A stretch of DNA of 64,000 nt from an uncultured Ferruginibacter sp. (GTDB lineage: Bacteria; Bacteroidota; Bacteroidia; Chitinophagales; Chitinophagaceae). The notes below the pieces were generated by a model. The model did no database searches. It worked only from the letters and a program-made list of their open reading frames with translations, and was not told the origin of the DNA. The stretch lies in NCBI GenBank assembly GCA_964586215.1, contig CAZPHA010000002.1, forward strand, positions 5,388-69,387. The letters run 5' to 3'. The position numbers and the translations under genes were made by a program. The first letter of the stretch is position 1, and the number at the start of each line of letters is the position of its first letter. Below are positions 54,451 to 55,629 of this stretch, piece by piece.

Positions 54451-55629
54451 ATGGAAATAGCGGCTACCAAACAGTTTTTCGAACTTCATAAAATTATTGC
54501 AAGTACAACACCTACGAATAATTCATTATTGGGAGGCAAATTGGGTATGGCGCTATATTATTATAGCTTATACGAAGCCTTTTATGATTTAGATTATGGT
54601 GAGAAAAGTGTTGTATTATTAGAAGAAGTATTGCAGGAAATGAGTACAGAAACTCCTGACGTAGCGGGTACTACCTTTGCTTCAGGGGGAGCCGGCCTGG
54701 GTTATGTGGTATCTGCCATGCATCATGGAGGATTAATAGAAATAAATCTGCAGGAGGAGCTTGCTGTATTGGACAAACTTTTGTTTACCGTAGCCATGGA
54801 GCAAATTACACAGCGTGATGCTATAGATTATTTGCATGGCGCCATGGGTGTGGTACATTACTTTACACAGCGATTACCGGATACTACCATCGAAAAATAT
54901 ACTTTACAAATTCTTCAGGCTTTATGCAATAGAGCTATCGAAGAACCGGAAGGAATTTGGTTTCAAAACTATGTAATTGATGAAAGAGAGAAGGAGCAAA
55001 TCAACCTGAGCCTTTCACATGGGCTGTCAGGGTTAATTATTTTGCTTGTAAATGCACAGCAAAAATTGCCACGTCAGGGTTTTCTATACCATACCATTGC
55101 TGAATGCGTTGCTTTTATATTGGCTCATTATATTGACATAAGCTCCGAACAGAAAGATGGGGCTTTTTTTCCTTCTACCATTGATCGAAATCAGCGGGAT
55201 AGTAGGTTTTACACGCCACGGTTGTCTTGGTGTTATGGAGATTTAAATGCTGTTCTTGCATTATATACTGCGGGGAATTTGCTGGAGCGTCCCGAATGGA
55301 CCAGCAGAGCTGATGAACTTGGGAGTGCTACTTTTATGCGCAAATCATTGGATGATGTGGCAGCTAGGGATACTCATTTTAGCCATGGCACCTCGGGGGT
55401 AGCACAATTTTATCAACGGTTTTATGAAATGACCCATAAAAAGATATACGAATCAGCCCGTGATCATTGGATTGAACAGACCCTCAACCTATTGCCATCC
55501 GAAATGCAGAAAAAATTTTATGCCGGTAAAGAGTGCGATTTATTGGAAGGACTGGTGGGAGTAAATTTATCCCTGGTTTCTTACATTAGCGACCGAAAGT
55601 TAGCCTGGAGCAAAGCATTGTTGTTGTAA
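54451..55629 (+). CDS. Lanthionine synthetase LanC-like protein (stand-alone)
   Basis: Repeated GxxG helices, 'SLSHGLSG', 'RLSWCYGD', 'FSHGTSG' (CHG position), 'LLEGLVG'. Confidence 0.88.
   Translation: MEIAATKQFFELHKIIASTTPTNNSLLGGKLGMALYYYSLYEAFYDLDYGEKSVVLLEEVLQEMSTETPDVAGTTFASGGAGLGYVVSAMHHGGLIEINLQEELAVLDKLLFTVAMEQITQRDAIDYLHGAMGVVHYFTQRLPDTTIEKYTLQILQALCNRAIEEPEGIWFQNYVIDEREKEQINLSLSHGLSGLIILLVNAQQKLPRQGFLYHTIAECVAFILAHYIDISSEQKDGAFFPSTIDRNQRDSRFYTPRLSWCYGDLNAVLALYTAGNLLERPEWTSRADELGSATFMRKSLDDVAARDTHFSHGTSGVAQFYQRFYEMTHKKIYESARDHWIEQTLNLLPSEMQKKFYAGKECDLLEGLVGVNLSLVSYISDRKLAWSKALLL

What the first reader, a model, noticed from the sequence alone, without database searches (positions are those of the whole stretch)
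54451..55629. Stand-alone LanC with Ser in place of a zinc-ligand Cys (SHG instead of CHG)
Seen: the catalytic His motif (SHG at 'LSLSHG'), Arg and WCYG Cys are retained, but the second Zn motif reads 'THFSHGTSG'. The Ser codon is AGC at 55381-55383, one base from TGC. Established: NisC-type cyclases bind Zn through Cys (WCYG), Cys and His (CHG); LanB-independent LanCL proteins add thiols such as glutathione to dehydroamino acids. Inference: this may be an enzyme with altered chemistry, a catalytically dead peptide-binding or immunity protein, or a recent loss-of-function mutation or sequencing error.
Basis: partly seen in the sequence, partly recalled or inferred. Interest (0 to 1): 0.65.

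Follow-up and report, generated by a model that had tools for sequence, protein, structure and literature searches.

The report
Lanthipeptide cyclase with mutated zinc ligand
This is a peptide-ring-forming enzyme gene (LanC) that has been separated from its partner dehydratase gene and carries a one-base, lineage-private change destroying one of its three zinc-binding residues, so it is most likely a cyclase caught early in decay rather than a new kind of enzyme.

Summary
Window 54451-55629 (+) encodes a 392-aa LanC-family protein with His190, Arg257 and WCYG Cys261 intact, but Ser311 (AGC, 55381-55383) where NisC has its zinc ligand Cys330.

The Ser is private. 118 of 120 nearest homologues have Cys. 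The three nearest orthologues and the genome's own paralogue all use TGC, so one T-to-A change explains it. It is not an assembly error: two other metagenome runs give 100% identical DNA.

The gene is "stand-alone" only locally. In 6 of 6 related loci lanC is followed directly by lanB; here kup follows after 164 bp. The genome's single LanB lies on another contig, in a mosaic cluster with a second, zinc-complete LanC. That LanB holds the same tree position as this LanC, which marks it as the displaced partner lineage.

A lanthipeptide-type precursor (50833-51012) with a shared leader box remains upstream.

Best reading (0.55): a redundant, catalytically crippled cyclase in early decay. Rivals are a residual scaffold or trans role, a non-catalytic role in the peptide-sensing module, and new chemistry.

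Zinc-ligand loss recurs at least 8 times in this Bacteroidota LanC family. Interest is modest.

The parts
54451..55629 (+). LanC-family ORF of 392 aa, here called the 'type A' Bacteroidota class I cyclase lineage
   Evidence: PF05147 E 4e-33, full length. AlphaFold2 model pLDDT 95.8. Foldseek top hits are MadC 8byk, LanCL2 and NisC 2g02, with TM 0.78-0.79.
55381..55383 (+). Ser311 codon AGC at the position of zinc ligand NisC Cys330
   Evidence: The column is Cys in 118/120 homologues. The orthologues L010, L013 and G016 and the paralogue on C7 all use TGC, so a single T-to-A change explains it.
55384..55386 (+). His312, the retained zinc ligand equivalent to NisC His331
55231..55233 (+). Cys261 (TGT) in WCYG, the retained zinc ligand equivalent to NisC Cys284
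55018..55020 (+). His190 in LSLSHG, the retained acid/base residue equivalent to NisC His212
   Evidence: Invariant in 120/120 homologues; alignment to NisC.
55630..55793 (.). 164-bp lanC-kup spacer, at the place where a full lanB (1024-1056 aa) sits in related loci
   Evidence: lanB directly follows lanC in L010, L013, L023 (G016), L024, L025 and L026. tblastn finds no LanB in the window and no remnant in the spacer, best E 0.13.
50833..51012 (+). 59-aa lanthipeptide-type precursor. The leader ...LVLNKRTIVKFV...VKGG is followed by a one-Cys core, YDNGGGGNQSDPRVCNSQNDTVEAK.
   Evidence: NF038153 lant_leader_L1a scores 18.1 bits, below its cut-off of 22. It aligns with precursors of L010, G016, L025, L026 and the C7 cluster. 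The LxLxKx5L + GG leader type is described in PMC7268733.
51051..51078 (+). Terminator-like hairpin just after the precursor gene
   Evidence: This is a consensus match only.
51112..52512 (+). S41 peptidase
   Evidence: PF03572 E 1.5e-15. It is only 31% identical to the S41 at the same position in L010.
52427..53614 (+). LytS-type histidine kinase (PF06580)
   Evidence: It is 52% identical to HK2 of L010 and L013.
53631..54341 (+). LytTR response regulator, immediately upstream of lanC
   Evidence: PF00072 + PF04397. It is 67% identical to the L010 response regulator.
49609..50039 (+). Two double-glycine leader bacteriocin-like peptides (49609-49806 and 49821-50039)
   Evidence: Translations; weak NF038034 hit.
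50212..50691 (+). CPBP/Rce1-like intramembrane protease, a bacteriocin-immunity-type gene
   Evidence: PF02517 E 1.2e-12.
55794..57815 (+). kup K+ transporter, the conserved right flank of the locus
   Evidence: PF02705 and PF22776. It is 76% identical to Kup of L010.

Best explanation
The gene is the orthologue of a Bacteroidota class I lanthipeptide cyclase (LanC) at its ancestral locus: precursor, S41 peptidase, LytS kinase, LytTR regulator, LanC, [LanB], kup.

In this lineage the cluster has come apart. lanB is absent from the locus. The only LanB in the genome, which is co-phyletic with this LanC, sits on contig C7. There it is in a mosaic cluster with a different, zinc-complete LanC, a C39-ABC exporter and a three-Cys precursor.

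A single T-to-A change (TGC to AGC) then replaced the zinc ligand equivalent to NisC Cys330 with Ser.

Inference: the zinc site, and with it thiolate activation of the substrate Cys, is lost or severely weakened. The protein is a redundant, catalytically crippled cyclase in the first stage of decay, with its reading frame still intact.

Inference: the local one-Cys precursor can still be dehydrated in trans by the C7 LanB, because the leader box LNKRTI(V/A)KFV is shared. It could then be cyclised by the C7 LanC or spontaneously. That would explain why loss of this cyclase is tolerated.

What is shown: the residue, its privacy to this lineage, the missing lanB, the co-phylogeny and the redundancy. 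What is inferred: the loss of activity and the order of events.
For: (1) Ser311 aligns with NisC Cys330. Mutating Cys284, Cys330 or His331 of NisC abolishes cyclisation (Li & van der Donk 2007, as cited in PMC7296275 and PMC9889658).

(2) The change is private. The column is Cys in 118/120 homologues, including the three nearest at 57-62% identity and same-genus G016. All of these use TGC against AGC here.

(3) lanB follows lanC directly in 6 of 6 related loci, three of them syntenic (META/ftsZ ... kup-rhodanese-hydrolases). In the window kup follows lanC after 164 bp with no remnant.

(4) The genome has one LanB, on C7. It is 54-56% identical to the LanBs of L010 and L013, but only 35% identical to the LanBs that accompany relatives of the C7 LanC.

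(5) The LanB and LanC trees are congruent.

(6) A zinc-complete second LanC (WCYG, FCHG) lies in the C7 cluster.

(7) There is mild excess divergence. P0001 deviates at 3 of 52 columns that are at least 90% conserved, against 0-1 in its sisters. Its terminal branch is 0.50 against 0.32-0.44.

(8) Cluster erosion is visible elsewhere in the genome and genus. A roughly 200-bp LanB remnant lies on C38. This LanC type is found in only 2 of 37 genomes of the genus.

(9) Zinc-ligand loss recurs at least 8 times independently in the family, usually on long branches and with no conserved replacement residue.
Against: - The ORF is intact, and every other catalytic or invariant residue is kept: Asp126, His190, Arg257, Trp260, Cys261, Tyr262, His312 and Gly313.
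- Its divergence from L010 (38%) is not out of line with its neighbours: response regulator 33%, kinase 48%, Kup 24%. Any relaxation must therefore be recent.
- Six zinc-complete LanCs without a LanB within 10 kb exist in other genomes. Separation from LanB alone does not force ligand loss.
- Intact, long-lived zinc-deficient LanC-like paralogues exist in the phylum, so loss of a ligand does not prove loss of function.
- Ser could in principle hold a weakened metal site.
Confidence: 0.55

Rival explanations
1. The protein is still in use as a partner of the displaced LanB. It acts in trans on the local one-Cys precursor, either as a weak cyclase (zinc held by Cys261, His312 and water or Ser) or as a non-catalytic scaffold or chaperone in a LanB-LanC-precursor complex. 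The single ring would then form with little or no catalysis.
For: The ORF is intact with all other conserved residues kept, and the fold is confidently predicted. The C7 LanB is its co-phyletic partner. The local precursor keeps the leader box LNKRTIVKFV, almost identical to the C7 precursor's LNKRTIAKFV. The precursor, S41, kinase and regulator genes around it are all intact. Divergence is not accelerated relative to neighbours.
Against: Zinc-ligand mutants of NisC are inactive. The Ser is not shared by any relative, so nothing shows selection for it. A zinc-complete LanC sits in the same cluster as the LanB.
Confidence: 0.22
2. The protein has been re-purposed as a non-catalytic peptide-binding component of the peptide-sensing module (precursor, S41, kinase, LytTR regulator). 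It might sequester or present the signal or leader peptide, or act as an immunity-type binder. Ser311 would be the first step towards the fully zinc-less LanC-like proteins seen elsewhere.
For: Full-length zinc-less LanC-like proteins exist in the same family. P0180 and P0196 still follow a response regulator. P0190 and P0196 have no LanB downstream. A conserved tandem paralogue family with L[LI]YG instead of FCHG is kept intact across four genera at 23-46% identity. lanC here sits directly after the LytTR regulator.
Against: No conserved replacement residue or new motif is seen. The change is a single private substitution. The zinc-less relatives sit on long branches with differing residues, which fits relaxation as well as it fits a new role. 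There are no binding data.
Confidence: 0.13
3. Altered chemistry: Ser311 creates a new catalytic activity, such as a different nucleophile or metal, or LanCL-like intermolecular thiol addition.
For: Only the observation itself: the rest of the active site is kept.
Against: The change is not conserved in any relative. LanCL enzymes and all characterised zinc-dependent cyclases keep Cys-Cys-His. Metal-independent class III domains have lost all three ligands and are fused to kinase and lyase domains.
Confidence: 0.04
4. Sequencing or assembly error: the true codon is TGC.
For: AGC and TGC differ by one base. Raw reads could not be inspected.
Against: The same protein and 100% identical DNA occur in Logan assemblies of two other runs, SRR11567528 (7340 bp) and SRR11567520 (3186 bp).
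Confidence: 0.02

Closest known systems
NisC / MadC-type class I lanthipeptide cyclases (LanC, PF05147)
   Same: Full-length PF05147 match. Predicted alpha,alpha-toroid fold, with MadC 8byk and NisC 2g02 among the top structural hits. Equivalents of Asp141, His212, Arg280, Cys284, Tyr285 and His331 are all present. A class I type precursor lies upstream, and the orthologues sit next to LanB.
   Different: The Cys330-equivalent zinc ligand is Ser. There is no lanB at the locus. The partner LanB lineage is on another contig beside a different LanC.
Bacteroidota class I lanthipeptide clusters with LxLxKx5L / Gly-Gly leaders (pinensin-related families; Walker et al. 2020, PMC7268733)
   Same: The leader type of the local precursor and of the C7 precursor. 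A C39-ABC exporter is present in the genome. The closest named homologues are from Chitinophagaceae.
   Different: The module here and in its relatives is precursor, S41 peptidase, LytS kinase, LytTR regulator, LanC, LanB. The local precursor has a single Cys. In this genome the module is split over two contigs.
Class III LanKC cyclase domains (metal-independent, e.g. ThurKC)
   Same: LanC-like fold with non-canonical residues at zinc-ligand positions.
   Different: LanKC domains lack all three ligands (Ser726, Phe770 and Asp771 in ThurKC) and are fused to lyase and kinase domains. This protein is stand-alone and keeps two of the three ligands.
Eukaryotic LanCL1/LanCL2 glutathione transferases
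   Same: Same fold (Foldseek TM 0.67-0.73).
   Different: LanCLs keep the full zinc triad and act without LanB. This protein nests phylogenetically among LanB-linked bacterial cyclases.

Membership tests
LanC family (PF05147) by descent | Full-length match to the LANC_like profile above the gathering score | tested here: met
   E 4e-33, 114.9 bits against 23.2, profile positions 2-350 of 350.
LanC family (PF05147) by descent | alpha,alpha-toroid fold like NisC and MadC | tested here: met
   AlphaFold2 pLDDT 95.8, pTM 0.94. Foldseek gives 8byk at E 1e-12 and TM 0.79, and 2g02 at TM 0.78. This is a predicted structure, not a solved one.
Catalytically competent zinc-dependent lanthionine cyclase (NisC type) | Zinc triad Cys284 / Cys330 / His331 | tested here: not met
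   The triad here is Cys261 / Ser311 / His312. It should therefore not be annotated as an active cyclase on sequence alone.
Catalytically competent zinc-dependent lanthionine cyclase (NisC type) | Acid/base and second-shell residues (equivalents of Asp141, His212, Arg280, Tyr285) | tested here: met
   Asp126, His190, Arg257 and Tyr262 are present. They are invariant or nearly invariant in the 120-sequence alignment.
Catalytically competent zinc-dependent lanthionine cyclase (NisC type) | Stoichiometric zinc content and cyclisation of a dehydrated precursor | not testable with these tools
   Needs ICP-MS or AAS and an in vitro or heterologous assay.
Class I lanthipeptide gene cluster | LanB dehydratase encoded with LanC | tested here: not met
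   There is no LanB in the 64-kb window. The genome's only LanB is on contig C7. In 6 of 6 related loci LanB is adjacent.
Class I lanthipeptide gene cluster | Precursor with a recognisable leader and a Ser/Thr + Cys core | tested here: inconclusive
   The 50833-51012 peptide has an LxLxKx5F...GG leader and a core with 2 Ser, 1 Thr and 1 Cys. Its NF038153 score of 18.1 is below the cut-off of 22.
Class III LanKC-type metal-independent cyclase domain | All three zinc ligands absent, and fusion to lyase and kinase domains | tested here: not met
   Two ligands are retained. The protein is stand-alone at 392 aa. NF038151 matches only partially (31.7 bits against a cut-off of 575).
LanCL-type LanB-independent thiol transferase | Full zinc triad, no association with LanB, eukaryote-type clade | tested here: not met
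   The triad is incomplete, and the nearest relatives are all LanB-adjacent bacterial LanCs.

The most novel reading that the evidence does not exclude
Zinc-ligand-deficient, LanB-less LanC-like proteins that remain directly downstream of two-component regulators in Bacteroidota form a functional class of non-catalytic peptide-binding partners of a peptide-sensing module, or LanB scaffolds. On this reading the window's protein is a caught-in-the-act first step of that transition, not a dying gene.
Probability: 0.12. Interest if true: 0.55.

Novelty: new member of a known kind. Interest (0 to 1): 0.3.

Why it matters
As a single gene it matters little. It warns that this ORF should not be annotated, or mined, as an active lanthionine cyclase. 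It also shows that the locus alone cannot make a lanthipeptide.

The wider value is as a natural experiment. The genome shows a class I lanthipeptide module pulled apart. The cyclase stayed at the ancestral site. Its co-evolved dehydratase was recombined with a foreign cyclase, an exporter and a different precursor. The orphaned cyclase then lost a zinc ligand.

That makes two questions testable. Can a LanB work with a non-cognate LanC? Does a LanC have a role beyond catalysis?

The recurrent, sometimes conserved, loss of zinc ligands in stand-alone Bacteroidota LanC paralogues was not found described in the literature searched. It may deserve its own study.

Tried and rejected
I did not try to reach reads another way. 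Logan contigs of two runs obtained through the look-up of encoding contigs served instead.
- Closer relatives: none exist between 62% and 100% identity among 5.8 billion protein clusters. Of 36 other same-genus genomes, only G016 has the orthologue.
- The apparent split of the G016 LanC was rejected as evidence of pseudogenisation. The highly conserved Kup (89-94% identity) and the S41 gene are also split in that assembly, which points to assembly frameshifts.
- Remnants of LanB in the lanC-kup spacer: none, best E 0.13.
- Nucleotide footprint of a recent lanB move from C2 to C7: only 8-10-nt chance matches.
- Shared regulatory repeats among the locus's intergenic regions: only AT-rich chance k-mers.
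- The sigma-70 promoter scan was uninformative (31 sites found against 42 expected) and is not appropriate for Bacteroidota.
- dN/dS was not attempted, because synonymous sites are saturated at about 60% amino-acid identity.
- Cys219 (a Gly-to-Cys change at a column that is at least 90% conserved) was considered as a compensating ligand. It lies mid-helix in helix 210-225 of the model, and no coordinates were available to measure distances. This is left open but judged unlikely.
- PMC2517114 (LctM zinc-ligand mutants) is not held.

Full report
**1. The observation**

Window 54451-55629 (+) is an uninterrupted 392-codon ORF. It matches Pfam LANC_like (PF05147) from end to end: E 4e-33, 114.9 bits against a cut-off of 23.2.

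An AlphaFold2 model built on 120 homologues is confident, with mean pLDDT 95.8 and pTM 0.94. Its best structural matches are the class I cyclase MadC (8byk), LanCL2 and NisC (2g02), at TM 0.78-0.79.

- LSLSHG gives His190.
- WCYG gives Cys261, codon TGT at 55231-55233.
- HFSHG gives Ser311, codon AGC at 55381-55383, and His312.

A profile alignment to the NisC chain puts WCYG on NisC WCYG and FSHG on NisC ICHG. The chain index plus 6 reproduces the published numbers Cys284, Cys330 and His331. Ser311 therefore replaces the zinc ligand Cys330.

According to PMC9889658 and PMC7296275, both citing Li & van der Donk 2007, these three residues bind the catalytic zinc, and mutating any of them abolishes cyclisation.

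**2. Is the Ser conserved in a clade, or is it an error?**

It is not conserved in a clade.
- Among the 120 nearest homologues out of 5.8 billion protein clusters, the column is Cys in 118. The query is the only Ser. The other exception, P0111, has also lost Cys261.
- The nearest relatives, P0002 (62%), P0003 (59%) and P0004 (57%), all read ICHG.
- At the DNA level L010, L013, same-genus G016 and the genome's own paralogue all use TGC. One T-to-A transversion explains AGC.

It is not an assembly error. The identical protein lies on Logan contigs of two other runs, SRR11567528 and SRR11567520. These match the window at 100% over 7340 bp and 3186 bp.

**3. The locus**

Between a META lipoprotein gene and kup lie, all on the + strand:
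- two double-glycine bacteriocin-like peptides (49609-50039);
- a CPBP protease (50212-50691);
- a 59-aa peptide with a Bacteroidota class I leader (50833-51012). The leader is ...LVLNKRTIVKFV...VKGG and the core is YDNGGGGNQSDPRVCNSQNDTVEAK. NF038153 scores 18.1 bits, below its cut-off of 22;
- a hairpin (51051-51078);
- an S41 peptidase;
- a LytS-type kinase;
- a LytTR regulator;
- the LanC.

The leader type, LxLxKx5L ending in GG, is the one described for Bacteroidetes class I precursors (PMC7268733).

There is no LanB and no exporter anywhere in the window.

**4. What relatives look like**

lanC is followed directly by a full-length lanB (1024-1056 aa) in all six related loci examined:
- L010 (P0002);
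- L013 (P0003);
- same-genus G016 (L023);
- L024 (P0013);
- L025 (P0016);
- L026 (P0005).

Five of them share the module precursor, S41, kinase, LytTR regulator, LanC, LanB.

L010, L013 and G016 are syntenic with the window: META/ftsZ on the left, and kup, rhodanese, two hydrolases and two S66 peptidases on the right. In those three loci lanB lies exactly between lanC and kup. In the window, kup starts 164 bp after the lanC stop, and that spacer holds no LanB remnant.

In 80 loci from named genomes, 67 of 73 zinc-complete LanCs have a LanB within 10 kb. In 34 of them it is immediately downstream.

The absence of lanB here is therefore a derived state.

**5. Where the dehydratase went**

The genome (3.08 Mb, 113 contigs) has exactly one LanB, on contig C7.

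The C7 cluster reads:
- a C39-ABC exporter;
- a LanC (P0121, with WCYG and FCHG intact);
- a three-Cys precursor with the leader ...KLNKRTIAKFV...INGG;
- an S41 peptidase;
- a kinase;
- a LuxR-type regulator;
- three more S41 peptidases;
- the LanB.

P0121 is only 26% identical to the window's LanC. It is 53-55% identical to the LanCs of L027 and L028, whose own LanBs are only 35% identical to the C7 LanB. The C7 LanB is instead 54-56% identical to the LanBs of L010 and L013. Its four best hits in the whole database are that same group.

Maximum-likelihood trees agree:

| Tree | Topology | Support |
|---|---|---|
| LanB | (L026, ((C7, P0385), (P0388, (L013, L010)))) | 99/97 |
| LanC | (L026 = P0005, (window, (L013, (L010, P0004)))) | 99/95 for the group as a whole; 83/58 for placing the window next to the L013/L010/P0004 clade |

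The C7 LanB thus occupies in its tree the same position that the window's LanC occupies in the LanC tree. It is the co-evolved partner lineage, now sitting beside a foreign, zinc-complete cyclase.

Other parts of the ancestral module are split in the same way:
- C7 S41c and S41d are 53-56% identical to the L010 S41, while the window's S41 is only 31% identical to it.
- The C7 kinase resembles L010 HK1 (47%).
- The window's kinase resembles L010 HK2 (52%).

No nucleotide footprint of a recent move was found, so the route is unresolved. A third locus, C38:2040-2248, holds a LanB remnant of about 200 bp covering residues 1-26 and 199-237 at 62-67% identity.

Within the genus, only 2 of 37 genomes carry this LanC type. 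Erosion and reshuffling of these clusters is evidently ongoing.

**6. How it most likely works now**

The following points are shown:
- One zinc ligand is gone.
- The cognate dehydratase is elsewhere.
- A complete cyclase is available.
- The local precursor shares the leader box LNKRTI(V/A)KFV with the C7 precursor.

The following points are inferred:
- The C7 LanB can still dehydrate the local precursor.
- The single ring can be closed by the C7 LanC or spontaneously.
- The window's LanC is therefore redundant, which allowed the Cys-to-Ser change to persist.

I read the protein as a catalytically crippled cyclase at the very start of decay (confidence 0.55).

Signs of relaxation are mild. P0001 deviates at 3 of 52 columns that are at least 90% conserved (L196I, G219C, C311S), against 0-1 in its sisters. 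Its terminal branch is 0.50 against 0.32-0.44.

Its overall divergence from L010 is in line with neighbouring genes. Either the event is recent or the rest of the protein is still constrained.

**7. Rivals**

(a) A residual role with the displaced LanB, as a weak cyclase or a scaffold (0.22). This is favoured by the intact ORF and active-site shell and by the co-phylogeny.

(b) A non-catalytic role in the peptide-sensing module (0.13). There is precedent in the same family.
- 17 of 264 members deviate at the triad, and about nine have lost all three ligands.
- These losses arose at least 8 times independently, mostly on long branches and with different residues.
- P0190 and P0196 have no LanB downstream. 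P0180 and P0196 still follow a response regulator.
- An intact tandem paralogue family reading L[LI]YG instead of FCHG sits just upstream of a canonical LanC in Arcicella, Spirosoma, Hymenobacter and a Chitinophagaceae MAG. Its members are 23-46% identical to one another, so the family is old and maintained.

(c) New chemistry (0.04). There is no conservation to support it. Metal-independent class III domains differ in having lost all three ligands and in being fused to kinase and lyase domains.

(d) Error (0.02).

**8. Comparison with the known, and novelty**

By descent and by fold this is a class I LanC of the Bacteroidota LxLxKx5L/GG-leader clusters. It fails the zinc-triad criterion of an active cyclase and the LanB-adjacency criterion of a class I cluster. 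It should therefore be called a LanC-family protein with a defective zinc site, not a lanthionine synthetase.

It is neither a LanCL-type enzyme nor a class III-type domain.

I found no description of zinc-ligand-deficient stand-alone class I LanCs in Bacteroidota in the library searched. That is absence of evidence only.

My context data are compatible with that arrangement. I did not test the function.

**9. Verdict**

It is a new member of a known kind, with interest 0.3. The split and mosaic cluster and the recurrent zinc-less paralogues are the parts worth following.

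Noticed in passing
G000 contig C7:58000-77999 (locus L009): A mosaic class I lanthipeptide cluster. It reads: C39-ABC exporter, zinc-complete LanC (P0121), three-Cys precursor (P0122), S41 peptidase, kinase, LuxR-type regulator, three more S41 peptidases, LanB. The LanB belongs to the lineage of the window's LanC (54-56% identical to the L010 and L013 LanBs). The LanC belongs to another lineage, whose usual LanBs are only 35% identical to this one.
   Followed up: yes
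G000 contig C38:2040-2248 (- strand): A remnant of a LanB gene about 200 bp long. Residues 1-26 and 199-237 are 62-67% identical to the L010 LanB and lie in different frames. It sits between a 350-aa membrane-protein gene and a response regulator followed by kdpAB-like genes.
   Followed up: partly
L046:8765-9949, L054:8742-9926, L072:8013-9206, L104:8773-9909, L106:8469-9695 (and L080:8722-9945): Intact LanC-like paralogues of 378-408 aa lie immediately upstream of a canonical LanC in Arcicella, Spirosoma, Hymenobacter and a Chitinophagaceae MAG. They read L[LI]YG (Pedobacter: ICYG) where LanC has FCHG, so they lack the equivalents of Cys330 and His331. They keep SHG and CYGD. They are 23-46% identical to one another, which marks an old, maintained zinc-deficient family.
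   Followed up: partly
P0180 (L032), P0190 (L031), P0196 (L033), and P0217, P0221, P0237, P0244, P0252, P0256: Full-length LanC-like proteins of the same Bacteroidota family that have lost all three zinc ligands, each with different replacement residues. P0190 and P0196 have no LanB downstream. P0180 and P0196 directly follow a response regulator.
   Followed up: partly
L029:10001-13087 and L030: An orphan LanB (P0385), the closest relative of the C7 LanB at 60% identity. It has no LanC within 10 kb. It sits in a heavy-metal-resistance island next to an HNH endonuclease and a YhcG-like nuclease gene, which suggests this LanB lineage moves on its own.
   Followed up: no
L010:5543-7008 and L013:6604-8097: The syntenic relatives carry an extra histidine kinase and a 73-74-aa GG-leader peptide with a hydrophobic, Cys-free C-terminal half (KLPDE...LLLVIFLL...) between the two kinases. 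Both are missing from the window.
   Followed up: no
L023 (G016:C9:422000-441999): In this same-genus assembly LanC, Kup, S41 and a kinase are each split into two frames despite high identity (Kup 89-94%). These are probably assembly frameshifts rather than pseudogenes.
   Followed up: partly
window 51051-51078: A 12-bp-stem hairpin followed by a T-rich run lies directly after the 59-aa precursor gene and before the S41 gene. The placement is that of an attenuator after a precursor gene.
   Followed up: no
window 51112-52512: The S41 peptidase at the conserved position after the precursor is only 31% identical to the S41 at that position in L010. Two S41 genes on contig C7 are 53-56% identical to it, so the S41 at this site has been exchanged.
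   Followed up: partly
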